A stretch of 61,452 nt of DNA from a phage. The DNA is taken from the sequence record PQ826432.1. One strand, given 5' to 3'. Below are positions 28,742 to 59,986 of the stretch, piece after piece (the first letter of the stretch is position 1; each line of letters starts with the position of its first letter). A program made the position numbers and the translations under genes. The notes beneath the pieces were generated by a model. That model searched no databases. It saw only the letters and a program-made list of their open reading frames with translations, and was not told the origin of the DNA.

Positions 28742-28814
28742 GTTTTCTTATACACTGCTCATCATTACGGTGGGCAGTAATAAGCAAACTAACATTAACG
28801 AAAGGAGCTATACC

Positions 28815-29429
28815 ATGTCTAAAGTAACTCACCGCGAACAGGACAAAATGCGCTACACCATGAAAACGAATGCACGCCGCGCTCTGAAGACCCGCTGGGG
28901 TCAGGTTGCACGCGACGCACACGAACAGTTAATCCATCAGGACGATATTGGTTTTTACATCATCGAAAAGGAAGTCCTTCAGGTTCTGCGCGAGCACGAA
29001 AAAGCGCAACAGCCCGAGCAGAAAGTCCCAGCACCGACCGCCGCGCCAGCTGCTAGCGTCTCGGTACTGCGCCCGATGGTAAATCCGGAAATTGTCAAAA
29101 GCTGCCTCGAATCTCTGGAGCAGGAGGAAGAGAAAGATATGAAACACGCAAAAGCTGCCACGCAGGTTTCTGAAATCAAAATTGAAGAGCCAAAAGCTGC
29201 CTTGCCAAAACAAGATGCAAAAGCTGCTCGCTGCGATTTCAAAAATGGCGCTCGCAAGCCGCTCAAAGGAAAAACTGCCGAAGTGTGGGCAATGGGTGAC
29301 AAGCTTCTGAAGGAACTGGGCCGCACGCCGGAGCTGAAAGAGATGAAAGCTGCAATGCCTTCTTACAACGGGACGACGGTAGCCATTCAGTTCTACGCCT
29401 GGCGCAAATATAACGGCCTGGACGCATAA
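28815..29429 (+). CDS. hypothetical protein (about 204 aa)
   Basis: ORF track 28770..29429; ATG 28815 with AAAGGAG SD. Confidence 0.5.
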   Translation: MSKVTHREQDKMRYTMKTNARRALKTRWGQVARDAHEQLIHQDDIGFYIIEKEVLQVLREHEKAQQPEQKVPAPTAAPAASVSVLRPMVNPEIVKSCLESLEQEEEKDMKHAKAATQVSEIKIEEPKAALPKQDAKAARCDFKNGARKPLKGKTAEVWAMGDKLLKELGRTPELKEMKAAMPSYNGTTVAIQFYAWRKYNGLDA

Positions 29430-29991: not shown

Positions 29992-29998
29992 ACTACTT

Positions 29999-30024
29999 CC
30001 GGACCAGTCCTCCTACTGGTCCGG
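29999..30024 (+). terminator. stem-loop after 29665..29991
   Basis: 10-bp stem CCGGACCAGT/ACTGGTCCGG with 6-nt loop; weak U-run. Confidence 0.45.
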
Positions 30025-30162
30025 TTAACCGCGCAATAAAGTCCTCCTCCAATATCCCGCGATTAAGCGCATTATAGCTTGATATACCTTCCGATCACAA
30101 TAGTTCAATAAATTTCCCTCAAAAGCACTTGACTTCTCACTTTTGATCTGCATCCGTTCAGG

Positions 30163-30191
30163 TTTATGAAAATTTATAGAGTTTATATAAT
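30163..30191 (+). promoter_or_regulatory. candidate sigma70-type promoter
   Basis: TTTATG, 17-nt spacer, TATAAT at 30186..30191. Confidence 0.3.
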
Positions 30192-30312
30192 GACCATAAA
30201 CTCGTCAAATAATACCAATAGGTACTATATACATTAATAATAAATCCTTATTTTATATATATTTATAGTTATTATTAATATTAGTTTAATTTGGTTTATT
30301 TTAGTTAGTTGA

Positions 30313-30595
30313 CTGAAAGTTTATAAGTTTATAGGGGGGTATACCCTACCAAATGTTAGAGAATTAATAGTATAGTAGTGATAGTGGCATTTACACGTTT
30401 TCACTACTACTACTAATTCTTAGATTTACATAAGGTGTTAAGGGAGCAAACATAAACTTATAAACTTTGCTCTGTGTCAAAAATAAAAATTAGTGAATAG
30501 TGGAATAGTGGTTTATAGTGGCAAACTTTTACAAAGCCAGTAACGGCGTACTATACGCAAATTTTCCACTATGTACGCCACTAAGCACTATATTA
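30313..30595. repeat. iteron-like array and 16-bp inverted repeats in AT-rich region (candidate origin or operator)
   Basis: ATAGTGG at 30381, 30497, 30505, 30515; inverted CCACTAT/GCACTAT at 30566, 30585; AAGTTTATAAGTTTAT (30317..30332) matches reverse complement at 30452..30467. Confidence 0.55.
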
Positions 30596-30660
30596 AAACA
30601 ATCCTTGCAAATAGCTAATGTCTGTTTTATAGTAACATTACCAGTTCACTAGGAGGATTT

Positions 30661-31389
30661 ATGAGCGAAGAAACTATTACGTCTAAAACTGTGGTTAAAG
30701 ACCTGTGCTATGTTGCATGGGTTGCCCAAGCTTGCTCGCAGTTGCGCGGTGCGCCAACCAAATCACAGGCGCTTGCTATGGTGGAGGATTACTTCAACGA
30801 TGATGTGGAACAGCCTGTTAAAAAAGCCGTAAGACAAAAAGCGGGAAAGCTGGATGCAGAACGAGCGGCTTTTCTTGCATGGGTTAGTGATAAGCTGGGT
30901 CATGAACTGGATGCCAAAGAGCTTCGCAGCTATACGGGCAAATTCAATTACCACATGGGCAAGGGTAACGACCCATATGAAGAAGCATTTAAGGTAAAAG
31001 AAGATAAGGGTAAGGCAGGGCGCAAGGAAAACGTCGAGCTTAAAGCATGGATAGAGCGCCAGGCTTTACTCAAAGGGGATGCTCTGACAGATAAGGAAGT
31101 TAATTCTTTAACGCAACGCTGGTACAGGATGCGCCGGAGCGGCGATATCCAGGACTGGGATAATCGCGGTCGCTGGCCTACGTGTTCTCTGCACCATTAC
31201 GAAACCGCTACCGCTATCCGCGTCAAGCTTGGTACTCATTGGGTAGACCTTGCAATATACAAGGATGCAGAGCAGGCTAAAAATATTCTTCCTAACATTG
31301 ATAATTGGCTTATTAGCTTAAGACAGGGAAGGGAGCCGCAGGACGTTATGTTAGAAGTTGGTAACAATATTATCACAACTCCGCAATAA
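30661..31389 (+). CDS. hypothetical protein (242 aa) downstream of iteron region
   Basis: ORF track; strong SD AGGAGG. Confidence 0.55.
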   Translation: MSEETITSKTVVKDLCYVAWVAQACSQLRGAPTKSQALAMVEDYFNDDVEQPVKKAVRQKAGKLDAERAAFLAWVSDKLGHELDAKELRSYTGKFNYHMGKGNDPYEEAFKVKEDKGKAGRKENVELKAWIERQALLKGDALTDKEVNSLTQRWYRMRRSGDIQDWDNRGRWPTCSLHHYETATAIRVKLGTHWVDLAIYKDAEQAKNILPNIDNWLISLRQGREPQDVMLEVGNNIITTPQ

Positions 31390-31454: not shown

Positions 31455-31658
31455 ATGGATCACGAATCGGAATTTGATTTGAACTACATAACGGCGGCAG
31501 AAATCGAAGACCGTTATGGCATATCTAAGTTTAAGATGTCGCGCATACGTGACAGCATCCCGGGCGCTATCAGAATTGCTAACCAGTACATCTACAAACG
31601 CTCCTTAGCAGTGCCCGTTCTGGAAAAGATGCAAGGCGATAAGCGTCGGAGGTCATGA
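31455..31658 (+). CDS. hypothetical protein (67 aa)
   Basis: ORF track 31401..31658 starts TTG; ATG 31455 has GGAGGG SD. Confidence 0.45.
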   Translation: MDHESEFDLNYITAAEIEDRYGISKFKMSRIRDSIPGAIRIANQYIYKRSLAVPVLEKMQGDKRRRS

Positions 31659-31881: not shown

Positions 31882-34224
31882 ATGGAACTGTTTCCCGCTG
31901 AAATTAAAGCTTTCCCACAATGGGCTGTCGCCGATGCGGATAAAAAGCCGCTTGTATGGGACAACGATATCGGACGTTTGATGGCGGCGGACGTTACCGA
32001 TCCGGATATGCTAATGACATTTGAAGCTGCCAAAGGTTGCGCCGCTCATTTCAATAAACCTTATATCGGATTCGTGCTTACTGCGCAAGACCCGTTCACC
32101 TGCATCGACCTGGATGTGAAGAACGCAACCAATGAACCGGATCCCAAGAAGCACACGACGCCGGAACAGTTGCGTCGCTTCGAACAGATCATGACTGCGT
32201 TTGATACTTACACCGAAGTAAGTCGCTCAGGCTTGGGCGTCCACCTGTGGTTAAGAGGTAACATCGGTAAAGGTCGTCGACGTGATGGTGTCGAAGTTTA
32301 TAGTCAGGAGCGTTTTATTATCTGCACGGGCAATCCTGTCTATAACAAACCAGTTGCAGAACGTGATCATTATCTTACTATGCTTGTGAATGAGATTGAT
32401 CTTCAGCGCAAGACATATGAAATTGAACTGGTAGAAAAAGATCCGGTAGAAGACGATGCAACTATTCACCAGCGCGCACTTGAAGCGGACAACGGAGATA
32501 AGTATGCACGCCTATTCAATGGCGAATGGGTTGAAATGGGATTCCCTTCCCAGTCTGAAGCAGATCTTGCCCTTATTTCCATGTATGCATTCTACACAGA
32601 AAGTAATGAGCAATGTCGCCGTCTGTTCCGTTACAGTGCACTGGGCAAACGTGAGAAGGCTAATAAGAACAATGTTCATATTGACCGTTGTTTGCGTATG
32701 TGTCGCGGTCGCATGGAGCGTGAACGCATTGCCCAGGAAAACGTAGCGGCGCTGGCGCGGGATTACGCTGCCCGTATGCAAGCTGCACACAGTGCAATGC
32801 AGCAGGTAACGGAAATGCCTGTAACCGTCGAAACAACACAGGGGCAGACAGTAGTTGCAGAAAGCACATCCGTTGATGCAACAGCTATTGAATGGCCGCC
32901 GGGACTTGCTGGTGAGCTTGCAAAGTATATCTACAAAGCATCCGTCAGACCAGTGAAAGAAATCTCTATTGTTACCTCGCTCGGATTTATGGCTGGGGTA
33001 TGCGGGAAAGTATGGCAGATCCCGCAATCCGGTCTTAATGGTTATTTTGTCTTAATTGCTCGTTCTGGTGTTGGTAAAGAGACGTTGAACAGCGGGCTGT
33101 CTAATATAGTTAGCCAGATTCAGGACCAGTTTCCGCAGATTCATAGCTTTGTATCTTTTGATAGATGCGCTTCTGGATCTGCACTGCGTAAATCTTTTGC
33201 AGACAAACAATCTTTTATCAACCTGAATGGTGAGTTCGGTAAGATTATCAAAGCAATGGCAACGGCTCCAGCAGGCTCGCCGATGCAAAGTTTCAAGAAT
33301 GACCTTACCGATGTTTATCAAAAGTCCGGTCAGATGTCTATTGTTGGTGGTATGTCTTATTCTGATAAGGCTAATAATACTGAAGCTCAACAAGGTGTGG
33401 CATATAGCATCATGGGCGAAACAACACCGGACACATTCTTTGAAGCGTTAACCCGTGAAATGATGGAGGATGGATTCTTATCCCGTTTCCATGTTGTACG
33501 CTATGAAGGTGATCGACCACCTTTAAACAAAAATCAGCAGACTACAATGGATCAGCAGTTGAAAGACATGGTGTGCCATCTTGTTAACCACACTTTAGTA
33601 ACAATGGCAAAGCATCAGAGTATTGAAGTACAGTTTAGCCCGGATGCGGAAGCATTATGTGATCAGTTTAACGATGAATGTGATCGCAATATTAACGCAA
33701 CCAAAGACGAAGCAATCCGTCAGCCGTGGAACCGTGCTCACCTGAAGGTCTTGCGACTTTCTGCCTTGTTAGCTGTGGGTGAGAACTGGATCAATCCGGT
33801 GGTACAAACCTATCATGTGCAATGGGCTTTGGACTTTGTGCGACATGGACAGGACATTATTATGAAGGAATGGCATAGCGGTGGTATCGGGACTAACGAT
33901 GAAGCTCGTATCCGTACTATGTGTCAGGTCTGTGTGAATTATCTAACTAAAGACTGGGTGAAAGTTAAACGTGTAGATTTGCGCAAAGAAGGTATTATCA
34001 CGCGGGGTGATATTACTACGCGTCTTGCAAGTAAGTCCGCGTTTAAAAACTATCATCACGGATTATCCGCTGCAATCGAGTCTACAATCAAGGAGATGGT
34101 TGCTATGGGTGCACTTGTTCCGGTAACACGGGAGGAGACTATTAAACTGGGATTTACTGGGGCAGCTTGGCGCATTACGCAAGATGTTGAAGGAATTATG
34201 GCAAACTTAGGTGAAGAGGAATAA
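31882..34224 (+). CDS. DNA primase-helicase (primase-polymerase-like N-terminal domain plus P-loop helicase-like C-terminal domain)
   Basis: 780 aa; IDLDV and SRSGLGVHLW motifs; SGVGKET P-loop-like segment. Confidence 0.6.
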   Translation: MELFPAEIKAFPQWAVADADKKPLVWDNDIGRLMAADVTDPDMLMTFEAAKGCAAHFNKPYIGFVLTAQDPFTCIDLDVKNATNEPDPKKHTTPEQLRRFEQIMTAFDTYTEVSRSGLGVHLWLRGNIGKGRRRDGVEVYSQERFIICTGNPVYNKPVAERDHYLTMLVNEIDLQRKTYEIELVEKDPVEDDATIHQRALEADNGDKYARLFNGEWVEMGFPSQSEADLALISMYAFYTESNEQCRRLFRYSALGKREKANKNNVHIDRCLRMCRGRMERERIAQENVAALARDYAARMQAAHSAMQQVTEMPVTVETTQGQTVVAESTSVDATAIEWPPGLAGELAKYIYKASVRPVKEISIVTSLGFMAGVCGKVWQIPQSGLNGYFVLIARSGVGKETLNSGLSNIVSQIQDQFPQIHSFVSFDRCASGSALRKSFADKQSFINLNGEFGKIIKAMATAPAGSPMQSFKNDLTDVYQKSGQMSIVGGMSYSDKANNTEAQQGVAYSIMGETTPDTFFEALTREMMEDGFLSRFHVVRYEGDRPPLNKNQQTTMDQQLKDMVCHLVNHTLVTMAKHQSIEVQFSPDAEALCDQFNDECDRNINATKDEAIRQPWNRAHLKVLRLSALLAVGENWINPVVQTYHVQWALDFVRHGQDIIMKEWHSGGIGTNDEARIRTMCQVCVNYLTKDWVKVKRVDLRKEGIITRGDITTRLASKSAFKNYHHGLSAAIESTIKEMVAMGALVPVTREETIKLGFTGAAWRITQDVEGIMANLGEEE

Positions 34225-34227
34225 ATA

Positions 34228-34247
34228 AAGGGCCTTTCGGCCCTTTA
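34228..34247. terminator. bidirectional terminator
   Basis: 8-bp stem AAAGGGCC/GGCCCTTT, loop TTTC, A/T flanks on both strands. Confidence 0.6.
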
Positions 34248-34250
34248 TTG

Positions 34251-41047: not shown

Positions 41048-41916
41048 TGACTATGCCAACTAATTTCCACTTTGACGCGAGCAGCTATCAAGCACCTTCT
41101 TACGGCGCATTGCCGAAAGGTTGGTATAAAGCAGTAATTGAAGCATCTGAATTTAAACCGACCAAAAATGGCGGTATGGCAATCCAGGTAACGTTTAGCA
41201 TCATTGACGGTTTTGCTAAAGGTCGCAAAATCTTCGCTCGTTATAACGTTATTAACGACAACGAAGATACTGTGCGTATCGCTTACGAGCAACTGGGAGC
41301 TCTTTCCCACGCTGTAGGTGTAATTCGCTGGGATACTCCTGCGCAACTGCATAACATTCCGCTGAACCTGCGTCTGAAAGTTCGTTCTCAGGAAGGTTAT
41401 GAAGACAGCAACGAGCCGAACGGTTACGCTAACATCAACGATCCGGTTAAATATGCAGAAAAAGCAGCAGAGGCTCCATCAATGGGTGCTCCAGCAGTAG
41501 CTAACCCGTTTGGTGCAGGTGCGCCAGCACAGCAGCCAACTTTCCCGGGCGCAGCGCCACAGCAGCCAGCAGCTAACCCGTTTGCTCAGCAACAGCAAGC
41601 ACCTGTACAGCAGCAAGCTCCGGTACAGCAACAGCAGCCTGTTCAGCAACCAGCACCGCAGCAGGGCGCAGCAGCTCAACCGTGGCAGAATGCCGCACCG
41701 CAGCCGTGGGATAACCCTGCTCAAAACGCAGCGCCACAGCAGCCAGTTCAGCAAGCTCCGGTACAACAGCCAGTAGCACCGGAAGCAGCTCAGCAGCCGT
41801 GGGCGCAGCAGGTAGCACAGCCGGGTCAGGCAGCAGCACCGCAGCAGCAAGCGCAGCCACAGCAGCAAGCTGAACCGCATCCGGCACAAGCAGCAGTCCC
41901 GCCGTGGCAGCAGTAA
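41047..41916 (+). CDS. single-stranded DNA-binding-like protein with Pro/Gln/Ala-rich C-terminal tail
   Basis: position after Sak4-like ATPase; low-complexity C-terminus. Confidence 0.4.
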   Translation: MTMPTNFHFDASSYQAPSYGALPKGWYKAVIEASEFKPTKNGGMAIQVTFSIIDGFAKGRKIFARYNVINDNEDTVRIAYEQLGALSHAVGVIRWDTPAQLHNIPLNLRLKVRSQEGYEDSNEPNGYANINDPVKYAEKAAEAPSMGAPAVANPFGAGAPAQQPTFPGAAPQQPAANPFAQQQQAPVQQQAPVQQQQPVQQPAPQQGAAAQPWQNAAPQPWDNPAQNAAPQQPVQQAPVQQPVAPEAAQQPWAQQVAQPGQAAAPQQQAQPQQQAEPHPAQAAVPPWQQ

Positions 41917-59143: not shown

Positions 59144-59851
59144 TTAGCAGCAGCCAGTCGGAGGAGTTGGAGGAGTTGGCAGTTTAAAGTTAACTAACTG
59201 CTCAACCTGATTGATCTTACAAGTAAGACCAGCCGTTTGTGCCAACTGAGAGTTCGCAAAGCGAGCTTCCTGCAACTGGGACTTCAGGTCGCAGATCAGA
59301 ACAGCTTGCGCCTGTGCGTGTTGATCACGGATCAGTGCACGGGTAGCTTCAGCTTGACGCTCGATGTTCAGGTTGGTTTCGCAGCAACACTTCTCGGCTG
59401 CTAACTGTGCCTGGAAAGAACGGGTAATGTTAGCTGCCTCGTTGCTACACAGAGCCGCGAGCACTTGGCTGGTGCCGCCCTGGATTTGCGTGTTCAGACC
59501 AGCAAATCCCTGAACGGAAGCCAGCATATTCTGAGTGTTCTGCTGAGTGATGCCGTTATAGGTAGAAGCAGCAGAGCGCTCAACAGTCAGGTTAGTACCG
59601 TTCTGCCCCTGAATGGTCTGAAGAGTACCGTTGTTAATGGCTTGCAGAATTGCGTTGGTGTCAACAGAAGCTTGAACTTCCACCGGACCAGCGAAGTTAC
59701 CGCGACCACCCCAACCACCATTGCCACCCCAACCGTTACCGATCCAGGAACCAATCAAACCACCGATTGCACCACCGATACCAGCCGCACCAGCTTCACC
59801 GCCGAAACCGTCGCCACCGAGATTAGTAGGTAAAAGAGTCATGTCAGACAT
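59144..59851 (-). CDS. Gly-rich protein with C-terminal Cys cluster (about 235 aa)
   Basis: ORF track 59144..59980 (TTG); ATG 59851 with GGAG SD; GGDGFGGEAGAAGIGG...GWGGNGGWGG tract; ends PTPPTPPTGCC. Confidence 0.45.
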   Translation of the reverse strand: MSDMTLLPTNLGGDGFGGEAGAAGIGGAIGGLIGSWIGNGWGGNGGWGGRGNFAGPVEVQASVDTNAILQAINNGTLQTIQGQNGTNLTVERSAASTYNGITQQNTQNMLASVQGFAGLNTQIQGGTSQVLAALCSNEAANITRSFQAQLAAEKCCCETNLNIERQAEATRALIRDQHAQAQAVLICDLKSQLQEARFANSQLAQTAGLTCKINQVEQLVNFKLPTPPTPPTGCC

Positions 59852-59986
59852 AGGAAAATCTCCATATATGGATTTGTTAAGCGGATGTAACCAACTGGTT
59901 ACGAAGTAAAGCATACCCCTTAACACGATTTTTACAATCATCCAAATGTAAAGATTTTGTAAATTAGGATTGACAGTCAATAAAAA

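What the first reader, a model, noticed from the sequence alone, without database searches (positions are those of the whole stretch)
30030..30660. AT-rich region with iteron-like heptamers and nested inverted repeats: candidate origin or operator
Seen: 630-bp non-coding stretch after a terminator. ATAGTGG occurs in direct orientation at about 30381, 30497, 30505 and 30515, and inverted (CCACTAT/GCACTAT) at about 30566 and 30585. A perfect 16-bp inverted repeat (AAGTTTATAAGTTTAT, itself a tandem 8-mer) sits at 30317..30332 and 30452..30467. A TATAAT box lies at 30186..30191. Inference: iterons next to an AT-rich unwinding element are typical of replication origins; alternatively operator sites for the product of 30661..31389.
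Basis: partly seen in the sequence, partly recalled or inferred. Interest (0 to 1): 0.55.

Follow-up and report, generated by a model that had tools for sequence, protein, structure and literature searches.

The report
Probable Seuratvirus replication origin and operator
The 670-bp gene-free spacer ahead of this E. coli phage's primase-helicase operon carries two interleaved sets of DNA repeats that change in step with two different phage proteins, which marks it as the likely replication origin fused to a control region; it is a familiar kind of element that has not been described for this phage group.

Summary
The window is a Seuratvirus (Queuovirinae) genome, and all relatives keep the same spacer architecture.

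Comparing about 20 relatives separates two repeat families.
- **Motif A (ATAGTGG).** It becomes ATAGGGT or TAGGGGTA when the adjacent 242-aa protein changes type. It is absent in three of three phages that lack that gene. These are most likely that protein's binding sites or operators.
- **Motif B (RTTTATAR).** It brackets a 101-bp, 87% AT block, which is the most AT-rich stretch of the window and holds the global GC-skew minimum. Motif B switches to GTTTTGCGA or ATTTTAYG only when the C-terminal domain of the primase-helicase switches allele.

That C-terminal domain is predicted to be a winged helix. A genome-wide control found no other protein that tracks motif B.

My best reading, with no experimental test behind it, is an iteron origin of the SaPI Rep/PriRep type next to an autoregulated promoter. 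I file it as a new member of a known kind, of moderate interest.

The parts
29999..30024 (+). Hairpin CCGGACCAGT-cctcct-ACTGGTCCGG at the end of the upstream transcription unit. It is a putative terminator but has no T tract.
   Evidence: Perfect 10-bp inverted repeat (I23). Annotated as a rho-independent terminator in SA80RD and SA126VB. Not picked up by the terminator scan.
30030..30160 (.). Conserved left block of the spacer. It contains the best sigma-70-like match of the neighbourhood, on the minus strand (TTGTGA-18-TATAAT, 30100->30071). Function unknown.
   Evidence: About 95% identical even in relatives whose remaining spacer is replaced. Promoter scan.
30162..30202 (+). Left array of motif B iterons: GTTTATGA (30162), ATTTATAG (30172), GTTTATAT (30181), then TGAC, then the inverted copy CATAAACT (30195-30202). 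The TATAAT box at 30186-30191 overlaps the third copy.
   Evidence: Relatives keep the same geometry with a switched core: GTTTTGCGA/GTTTTGGGA/CTTTTTAAC...CCAAAAAC, or ATTTTATGC/ATTTTATGA/ATTTTCTGA...TATAAAAT.
30205..30310 (.). AT-rich block of about 101 bp and 87% AT. Candidate DNA-unwinding element.
   Evidence: The most AT-rich 100-bp window of the whole 61-kb window starts at 30227 (87%; the next best is 77%). The global minimum of cumulative G-C lies at 30247. Its length is held at 101-102 bp (107 in one locus) in the 13 loci measured.
30316..30468 (.). 153-bp imperfect palindrome. The outer arms (30316-30332 and 30452-30468) each carry two tandem motif B copies, AAAGTTTATAAGTTTAT.
   Evidence: Both arms change together in relatives, for example AAAGTTTTAGGTTTTTGG / CCAAAAACCCAAAACTTT.
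30366..30415 (.). Tip of the palindrome: the first dyad-symmetric array of motif A (ATAGTAT-AGTAGTG-ATAGTGG ... CACTACTACTACTA).
   Evidence: (I16, I17). Replaced at the same position by ATAGGGAGTAGGGTATAGGGT...ACCCTAGTACCCCTAT in Seurat-type phages.
30490..30591 (.). Second dyad-symmetric array of motif A. Four direct copies (30490, 30497, 30505, 30515), then a spacer holding the conserved AAGCCAGTAACGGCG, then inverted copies (30566, 30578, 30585, and a weak one at 30550).
   Evidence: (I2). The motif switches with the type of the 242-aa protein.
30605..30660 (+). Promoter of the replication operon, TTGCAA-17-TATAGT (30605-30633). Degenerate motif A copies lie at the -10 element (ATAGTAA, 30627) and at 30646-30651 (TCACTA). 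The ribosome-binding site is AGGAGG.
   Evidence: A promoter at the same position is annotated in SA80RD and SA126VB. In relatives the -10 element reads TATAGTGGC, or an inverted motif A pair lies between -10 and the ribosome-binding site: ATAGGGTtaaggcaatACCCTAT or ATAGTGGCACTAT.
30661..31389 (+). Gene for the 242-aa protein (phrog_27223). Inferred to bind motif A.
   Evidence: No Pfam, NCBIfam or PDB match. The family has only 11 clusters. The N-terminal 110 aa are 64-86% identical among ATAGTGG phages and 39-57% identical to GGG-motif phages.
31455..31658 (+). 67-aa protein (phrog_11967), a conserved neighbour of the primase. Role unknown.
   Evidence: It does not track either motif.
31882..34224 (+). 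Primase-helicase of 780 aa: an AEP primase-polymerase with an NrS-1-type helix-bundle domain, then an MCM-like ATPase, then a C-terminal winged-helix domain (aa 661-780, coordinates 33862-34221). The C-terminal domain is inferred to bind motif B.

Best explanation
The spacer is the cis-acting control region of the phage's replication module. It combines a probable origin of replication with the operator and promoter of the replication operon.

**Origin core (about 30160-30470).** Motif B iterons (RTTTATAR) lie on both sides of a 101-bp, 87% AT block. The left side has three direct copies and one inverted copy. The right side has two tandem copies, mirrored about 120 bp further on by two inverted copies. 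The inferred mechanism is this: the winged-helix C-terminal domain of the primase-helicase (31882-34224) recognises these iterons; the MCM-like ring loads itself and melts the AT block; the primase-polymerase domain then primes. This is how SaPI Rep/PriRep initiators work.

**Control layer.** Motif A heptamers (ATAGTGG) form two dyad-symmetric arrays. One sits at the tip of the palindrome, next to the origin core. The other sits directly upstream of, and weakly over, the sigma-70 promoter of the operon. They are inferred to be bound by the operon's first product, the 242-aa protein. That protein would feed back on the operon's transcription and possibly gate origin use.

**What is shown and what is inferred.** Shown here: the repeats, their geometry, their clustering, the AT and skew extremes, the winged-helix fold prediction, and both covariations. 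Inferred: the binding itself, the melting, and initiation at this site.
For: 1. **Clustering.** Motifs A and B are strongly clustered here and only here.
2. **AT and skew extremes.** The AT block is the AT extreme of the window and holds the cumulative GC-skew minimum. Its length is conserved across types.
3. **Motif B tracks the primase-helicase C-terminal half.**
   - All 13 GenBank phages with a B1-type array carry allele 1 (at least 98% identity).
   - All 9 B2 phages examined carry allele 2 (about 60%).
   - A third motif, ATTTTAYG, goes with a third allele.
   - Divergence is greatest in the C-terminal domain, at 37-45% identity between alleles. The ATPase domain is 68-81% identical and the primase domain 90-96%.
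4. **The pairing survives mosaicism.** Sequence is about 95% identical on both outer sides, and the primase N-terminal 315 aa stay 96-100% identical between the two diverged blocks.
5. **Genome-wide control.** Among tiles of all 234 ORFs, only primase aa 261-780 segregates with the motif B type. The single other candidate, a tail-fibre chaperone, is present in many B2 phages.
6. **Fold of the C-terminal domain.** It is predicted with high confidence to be a winged helix. The closest solved sequence relative, PriRep5, binds iterons through exactly such a domain. Those iterons flank an AT-rich region in opposite orientations (PMC9371898).
7. **Motif A tracks the 242-aa protein.** It reads ATAGTGG, ATAGGGT or TAGGGGTA according to the protein's N-terminal type. 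L013 and L014 share primase and motif B but differ in both this protein and motif A. Three of three phages without the gene lack the array.
8. **Motif A at the promoter.** In relatives, motif A pairs overlap the -10 element and 5'UTR of the operon promoter.
Against: - There is no experimental evidence of any kind.
- Covariation rests on three allele classes for motif B and about three or four for motif A. Phages within a class are closely related, and the partners are only 1-3 kb apart, so linkage contributes.
- The GC-skew minimum is broad, flat from about 27.0 to 30.5 kb, and lies near the switch in transcription direction.
- In B2 phages, motif B copies also overlap the operon promoter. This would fit a purely transcriptional role for the protein that binds motif B.
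- SaPI origins lie just downstream of rep, not upstream of the operon.
- Pantoea phage Vid5 has a 56%-identical primase C-terminal half but no comparable spacer upstream of its operon.
- The 242-aa protein has no recognisable DNA-binding fold, and its N-terminal model is of low confidence.
- In Seurat-type phages the outer right arm of the palindrome is degenerate.
- In this window the promoter-proximal motif A copies are weak.
Confidence: 0.6

Rival explanations
1. The spacer is only a transcriptional control region. Both repeat families are operators: motif A for the 242-aa protein and motif B for the primase-helicase C-terminal domain or another regulator. They set expression of the replication operon, and replication starts somewhere else.
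For: A sigma-70 promoter lies at 30605-30633, with motif A copies just upstream and, in relatives, over the -10 element and 5'UTR. In B2 phages, motif B copies overlap the -35 element. The GC-skew minimum can be explained by divergent transcription.
Against: Most motif B copies lie 270-440 bp upstream of the promoter and bracket the most AT-rich block of the genome, whose length is conserved. Motif B's co-varying partner is the winged-helix domain of a helicase whose solved relative uses that domain for origin recognition (PMC9371898). No second iteron cluster exists elsewhere in the window.
Confidence: 0.22
2. The 153-bp palindrome encodes a structured non-coding RNA, or is a transcription attenuator or terminator. 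On this reading the repeats are by-products of the stem.
For: Folding is much better than for shuffles on both strands. Both arms change together in relatives.
Against: No Rfam family or tRNA matches. No conserved promoter or terminator brackets the palindrome. The same 8-mer also occurs as direct repeats outside the stem, and those copies switch in parallel. The arm is degenerate in Seurat-type phages and the arm spacing differs in GottfriedDienst. The tip consists of motif A repeats that also form a second, unpaired array 100 bp away.
Confidence: 0.04
3. The spacer is a recombination-prone mosaic junction with no specific function. The apparent covariations then reflect only physical linkage of neighbouring cassettes.
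For: Several mosaic breakpoints fall in the spacer, at about 30115, 30160 and 30375. HNH homing-endonuclease genes are inserted nearby in relatives.
Against: The architecture is preserved in all types: the array geometry, the 101-bp AT block, and the inverted arrays at the same positions. Only the motif cores are replaced. Motif B and the C-terminal domain stay paired although the sequence between them is either homogenised (primase aa 1-315) or shuffled (the motif A and 242-aa modules). Repeat clustering is far beyond chance.
Confidence: 0.06
4. The ATAGTGG arrays are priming sites read by the primase-polymerase domain itself. The NrS-1 primase-polymerase starts synthesis at GTGG or GTGA.
For: The primase has an NrS-1-type helix-bundle domain. 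NrS-1 primase-polymerase uses 5'-GTGG-3' and 5'-GTGA-3' most efficiently (PMC8718748). Motif A contains GTGG or GTGA.
Against: The primase and helix-bundle part (aa 1-314) is essentially identical in Seurat, CAjan and SLUR76, whose arrays read ATAGGGT and contain no GTG. Motif A instead tracks the 242-aa protein.
Confidence: 0.05

Closest known systems
SaPI replication origins with Rep / PriRep5 self-loading initiator-helicases (Staphylococcus aureus pathogenicity islands; PMC9371898)
   Same: Short iterons lie in two sets flanking an AT-rich region, with opposite orientation on the two sides. The initiator is the helicase itself. In PriRep5 it is fused to an N-terminal primase, giving 790 aa against 780 aa here. 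A C-terminal winged-helix domain confers cognate iteron specificity. PriRep5 is the best PDB sequence match of the window's primase.
Satellite phage P4 ori/crr and the alpha protein
   Same: One polypeptide carries primase, helicase and a C-terminal origin-binding domain. It recognises octamer iterons present in both direct and inverted orientation.
   Different: P4 needs a second cis element, crr, about 4.5 kb away. No second iteron cluster exists in this window. P4 alpha's primase domain belongs to a different family. P4 replication is controlled by Cnr, not by an upstream operon partner.
Iteron plasmids (RepA/pi/TrfA type; review PMC4980987) and phage lambda ori/O
   Same: Repeated initiator-binding sites lie next to an AT-rich unwinding element. 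The initiator gene is autoregulated through inverted copies of the site at its promoter.
   Different: In those systems the initiator is a dedicated winged-helix protein that recruits a host helicase. In lambda the iterons lie inside the O gene. Here the iteron partner appears to be the helicase itself, and the putative autoregulator (the 242-aa protein) has a different site and no recognisable fold.
NrS-1 phage primase-polymerase (PMC7102993, PMC8718748)
   Same: The N-terminal primase-polymerase plus helix-bundle domain is homologous (Pfam PF22763; PDB 6K9A, 6A9W and 7RR3). A ring helicase domain follows it.
   Different: NrS-1 origin choice is proposed to come from a short template sequence read by the primase and helix-bundle domains. 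Here the primase part is invariant while the repeats vary, so specificity must lie elsewhere.

Membership tests
Iteron origin served by a self-loading initiator-helicase (SaPI Rep/PriRep type) | Short repeats (iterons) in two sets flanking an AT-rich region | tested here: met
   Motif B copies lie at 30162-30202 and 30319-30334 (with their mirror at 30451-30467) around the 87% AT block 30205-30310.
Iteron origin served by a self-loading initiator-helicase (SaPI Rep/PriRep type) | Iterons on the two sides of the AT region point in opposite directions | tested here: met
   The copy nearest on the left is inverted (CATAAACT, 30195-30202). The copies nearest on the right are direct (GTTTATAA and GTTTATAG, 30319-30334).
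Iteron origin served by a self-loading initiator-helicase (SaPI Rep/PriRep type) | The initiator is a ring helicase with a C-terminal winged-helix domain | tested here: met
   [not shown]
Iteron origin served by a self-loading initiator-helicase (SaPI Rep/PriRep type) | The C-terminal domain binds its cognate iterons specifically | not testable with these tools
   The support is indirect. Three alleles of the C-terminal domain pair with three iteron cores, with no discordant pair among the roughly 24 genomes or contigs scored for both. No other protein in the genome tracks the iterons.
Iteron origin served by a self-loading initiator-helicase (SaPI Rep/PriRep type) | The origin lies immediately downstream of the rep gene | tested here: not met
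   The site lies upstream of the operon, 1.4-1.7 kb before the primase start codon. Only a terminator palindrome follows the primase stop codon.
Iteron origin served by a self-loading initiator-helicase (SaPI Rep/PriRep type) | The helicase and C-terminal domain are homologous to SaPI Rep | tested here: inconclusive
   [not shown]
Iteron origin served by a self-loading initiator-helicase (SaPI Rep/PriRep type) | Replication actually initiates at the site | not testable with these tools
   Only compositional hints are available: the GC-skew minimum at 30247 and the AT maximum at 30227.
P4-type ori/crr system | A second cis-acting iteron cluster (crr) is present elsewhere in the genome | tested here: not met
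   There is no other cluster of motif B or of the tandem 15-mer in the window.
Autoregulated operator-promoter | Regulator binding sites overlap the promoter of the regulator's own operon | tested here: inconclusive
   The overlap is strong in relatives: a TATAGTGGC -10 element, and ATAGGGT-N9-ACCCTAT or ATAGTGGCACTAT between -10 and the ribosome-binding site. In this window only degenerate copies are present (ATAGTAA at 30627 and TCACTA at 30646). The full array ends 14 bp upstream of the -35 element.
Known structured RNA families (Rfam 15) and tRNA/tmRNA | A match to a covariance model at gathering score | tested here: not met
   There are 0 Rfam matches and 0 tRNA or tmRNA genes in the whole window.

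The most novel reading that the evidence does not exclude
The origin may be "double-keyed". Firing would need both the winged-helix domain of the helicase on the motif B iterons and the lineage-specific 242-aa protein on the motif A arrays at the palindrome tip. In other Seuratviruses the non-homologous GGAATAAT system would replace the 242-aa protein. The two exchangeable specificity cassettes would then act as replication-incompatibility or exclusion determinants between co-infecting phages. That would explain why they are swapped as matched protein-and-site pairs while the DNA between them is homogenised.
Probability: 0.15. Interest if true: 0.65.

Novelty: new member of a known kind. Interest (0 to 1): 0.45.

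Why it matters
The paper searches run here turned up no mapped or proposed replication origin for Seuratvirus or Queuovirinae phages. This group includes the BASEL collection phages and carries 7-deazaguanine-modified DNA.

The analysis yields several concrete things:
- A testable origin, with a core at about 30160-30470.
- A putative DNA partner for an orphan protein family (phrog_27223).
- A natural set of specificity swaps: three winged-helix alleles paired with three iteron cores, and three or four regulator types paired with heptamer cores. These could be used to work out the recognition rules of primase-helicase initiators.
- A basis for building orthogonal phage replicons.

It also shows that annotation pipelines call spurious small ORFs inside this spacer.

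Tried and rejected
- **Chance or low complexity.** Rejected by the cluster statistics.
- **Structured RNA or tRNA.** Rfam and ARAGORN found nothing. The compensatory arm changes are explained by iteron switching, because direct copies outside the stem switch too.
- **TATAAT at 30186 as a promoter.** The hexamer is not conserved.
- **Small ORFs in the spacer.** The 44-aa GTG ORF (30518-30652) is not conserved as a protein.
- **The 242-aa protein as the motif B binder.** Rejected. L013 and L014 share motif B but have only 40% identical C-terminal halves, and phages without the gene keep motif B.
- **The 67-aa protein as the motif B binder.** Its types do not follow motif B.
- **The primase and helix-bundle domains as readers of ATAGTGG (NrS-1 GTGG analogy).** Rejected.
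- **The tail-fibre chaperone that segregated with motif B in four genomes.** The association breaks in the wider collection.
- **Profile search of the 242-aa protein against PDB sequences.** Nothing found.
- **An internal repeat in the 242-aa protein, suspected by eye.** BLASTP found none.
- **DnaA-box resemblance of TTTTCCACT.** By my own reading only one copy comes close, and no DnaA-box pattern search was run.
- **More loci from IMG/VR.** Only 2 were found.
- **afdb50 fold library.** Unavailable.
- **Literature.** The searches found nothing on Seuratvirus origins or promoters.

Full report
**Identity and setting**

The window is a complete or near-complete genome of a Seuratvirus (Queuovirinae), an E. 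coli siphophage. The segment 29900-30800 is 96.9% identical to phage KS_A8 and 90-92% identical to KurtStettler, KS_A3 and SHIN8.

The finding lies in the 669-bp spacer 29992-30660. On its left are a 108-aa ORF and a hairpin at 29999-30024. On its right is an operon made of:
- a 242-aa ORF (30661-31389; phrog_27223; no Pfam or NCBIfam family),
- a 67-aa ORF (phrog_11967),
- a 71-aa ORF,
- a 780-aa primase-helicase (31882-34224; Pfam NrS-1 helix-bundle domain plus DUF3987).

All relatives have a spacer of 600-830 bp at this position.

**Check of the observation**

- ATAGTGG occurs 7 times in the window against 6.2 expected, but five copies fall within 186 bp. This is the top non-triplet 7-mer cluster in the window. 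Thirty Markov-1 simulated genomes reached at most 3-4 copies in 200 bp.
- The inverted repeat is 17 bp and perfect. It closes a 153-bp imperfect palindrome that folds far better than shuffled sequence (z -4.8 to -6.2).
- The TATAAT hexamer exists but is not conserved in relatives.
- The 44-aa ORF that some annotators call in the spacer is not conserved as a protein.

**Two repeat families, not one**

I read the homologous spacers of 19 relatives (12 GenBank phages, four metagenomic contigs and, later, three more phages). I also ran an unbiased 6-mer enrichment on the spacers. The same architecture appears everywhere, but the repeat cores differ by lineage.
It forms two dyad-symmetric arrays. 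One is at the palindrome tip (30366-30415). The other lies just upstream of the operon promoter (30490-30591).
It occurs as three direct copies and one inverted copy at 30162-30202, spaced 10 and 9 bp apart. It occurs again as two tandem copies in each palindrome arm.

Between the left motif B array and the palindrome lies a 101-bp block of 87% AT. It contains the most AT-rich 100 bp of the whole 61-kb window (87%; the runner-up is 77%). It also contains the global minimum of cumulative G-C, at position 30247. Its length is held at 101-102 bp in nearly all types.

**What motif A follows**

- Phages whose 242-aa homologue has the window-type N-terminal 110 aa all carry ATAGTG(G). These N-terminal parts are 64-86% identical to one another.
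- Seurat, CAjan and SLUR76 have N-terminal parts 46-53% identical to the ATAGTGG group, and they carry ATAGGGT at the same positions.
- L014 carries ATAGGGT or TAGGGTA. L017 carries TAGGGGTA or GTAGTAG.
- L013 and L014 have essentially identical primases and the same motif B, but they differ in both the 242-aa protein and motif A.
- GottfriedDienst, OddieOddie and Skure lack the 242-aa gene. They have no motif A array and carry GGAATAAT/ATTATTCC repeats instead.

In relatives, motif A copies overlap the promoter. The -10 element reads TATAGTGGC, or an inverted pair lies between -10 and the ribosome-binding site. In this window those copies are degenerate.

I infer that the 242-aa protein binds motif A through its N-terminal part and regulates its own operon. 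The protein's fold gave no help.

**What motif B follows**

Motif B has three versions with identical geometry:
- GTTTATGA-ATTTATAG-GTTTATAT...CATAAACT,
- GTTTTGCGA-GTTTTGGGA-CTTTTTAAC...CCAAAAAC,
- ATTTTATGC-ATTTTATGA-ATTTTCTGA...TATAAAAT.

The palindrome arms change accordingly on both sides. Motif B does not follow the 242-aa protein or the 67-aa protein. It follows the C-terminal half of the primase-helicase.
- All 13 distinct GenBank phages with a B1-type array (at least 93.7% identity to 30148-30335) have C-terminal allele 1 (at least 98% identity).
- All B2 phages have allele 2 (about 60% identity).
- The ATTTTAYG contigs have a third allele.

By domain, the primase and helix-bundle part is 90-100% identical across alleles, the N-terminal tier 64-79%, and the ATPase 68-81%. 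The last 120 residues are only 37-45% identical.

The diverged blocks are sharply bounded. Nucleotide identity to the window is about 95% up to roughly 30115-30160 and again from the primase stop codon onward.

In a control across whole genomes (two B1 and two B2 genomes, all 234 ORFs cut into tiles), only primase aa 261-780 segregated with the motif B type. The exceptions were an overlapping alternative-frame ORF, a 70-aa antisense ORF with a weak contrast, and a tail-fibre chaperone. The wider collection shows that chaperone to be present in many B2 phages.

**The helicase's C-terminal domain**

The best solved sequence relative of the whole protein is PriRep5 of SaPI5 (7OLA), ahead of the NrS-1 primase. 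PMC9371898 reports the following about PriRep5 and Rep:
- They are self-loading initiator-helicases.
- Their C-terminal winged-helix domain recognises iterons.
- The iterons lie in two sets around an AT-rich region, with opposite orientation on the two sides.
- Removing the C-terminal domain abolishes origin binding.

The window's arrangement matches this logic: an inverted motif B copy to the left of the AT block and direct copies to its right.

**Interpretation**

The most economical reading is a composite element.
- **An iteron-type origin.** It consists of motif B, the AT block and the palindrome, and is read by the primase-helicase's own winged-helix domain.
- **An operator-promoter.** It consists of the motif A arrays and is read by the first product of the operon. 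One of its arrays is embedded at the palindrome tip, next to the origin core.

I put this at about 0.6. The steps that remain inferred are binding, melting and initiation.

The main rival, at about 0.2, is that both repeat sets are purely transcriptional operators and the origin lies elsewhere. Three points favour it: motif B copies sit over the promoter in B2 phages, the skew minimum is broad, and Vid5 lacks a comparable spacer.

Four other readings are each unlikely:
- an RNA gene,
- a functionless mosaic junction,
- priming sites for the primase domain (NrS-1 primes at GTGG or GTGA, PMC8718748, but the primase domain is invariant while motif A changes),
- chance.

**Novelty**

The kind of element is well known: iteron origins, SaPI Rep/PriRep, P4 alpha, and autoregulated initiator operons. 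The literature searches found nothing on a Seuratvirus origin.

The unusual points are the interleaving of two protein-specific repeat sets within one palindrome-containing region, and the cassette-like co-replacement of each site family with its protein partner.

I rate it a new member of a known kind, with interest 0.45.

Noticed in passing
window 30071-30100 (minus strand), within the conserved block 30030-30160: The best sigma-70-like match in 27-32 kb (TTGTGA-18-TATAAT, 10 of 12 positions) points leftwards, away from the putative origin. The block is about 95% conserved in almost all Seuratviruses. Two AGTCCTCCT copies (30006 and 30040) read AGGAGGACT on the minus strand. A 42-aa minus-strand ORF (30025-30153) is annotated in KS_A8.
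   Followed up: partly
L018 2340-2378, 2624-2660 and 2991-3000; L030 and L031 at equivalent positions; L009 about 1540-1585: Seuratviruses that lack the 242-aa gene carry 9-10 copies of GGAATAAT/ATTATTCC where this window has ATAGTGG. The protein that binds them is unknown. Dru_SM1 has the left cluster of these repeats as well as ATAGTGG arrays.
   Followed up: partly
window 30534-30548: The 15-mer AAGCCAGTAACGGCG, at the centre of the second ATAGTGG array, is conserved with small changes in all ATAGTGG-type phages and absent from ATAGGGT-type phages.
   Followed up: no
window 29096-29221: Four copies of AAAGCTG/CAAAAGC lie within 125 bp, inside ORF 28770-29429 (phrog_22313, unknown function). 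This is probably a coding repeat.
   Followed up: no
window 41530-41890: A dense CAGCAGC/CTGCTGC triplet-repeat cluster lies in the most GC-rich kilobase of the window (52.8% GC). It is presumably a coding low-complexity tract.
   Followed up: no
window 34223-34249: A 27-bp palindrome lies directly after the primase stop codon. SA80RD annotates it as a bidirectional terminator. It also marks the right-hand boundary of the variable primase cassette.
   Followed up: partly
[not shown]
   Followed up: partly
L002 6724-7248, L009 3180-3704, L017 4064-4597: HNH homing-endonuclease genes are inserted between the 67-aa gene and the primase in some relatives. GottfriedDienst has an HNH remnant there. 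This fits the heavy mosaicism of the module.
   Followed up: no
window 59144-59980 (minus strand): A lateral tail-fibre chaperone-like ORF (phrog_9288) is present or absent among Seuratviruses independently of the replication cassettes. Close homologues occur in Salmonella, Yersinia and other phage genera.
   Followed up: partly
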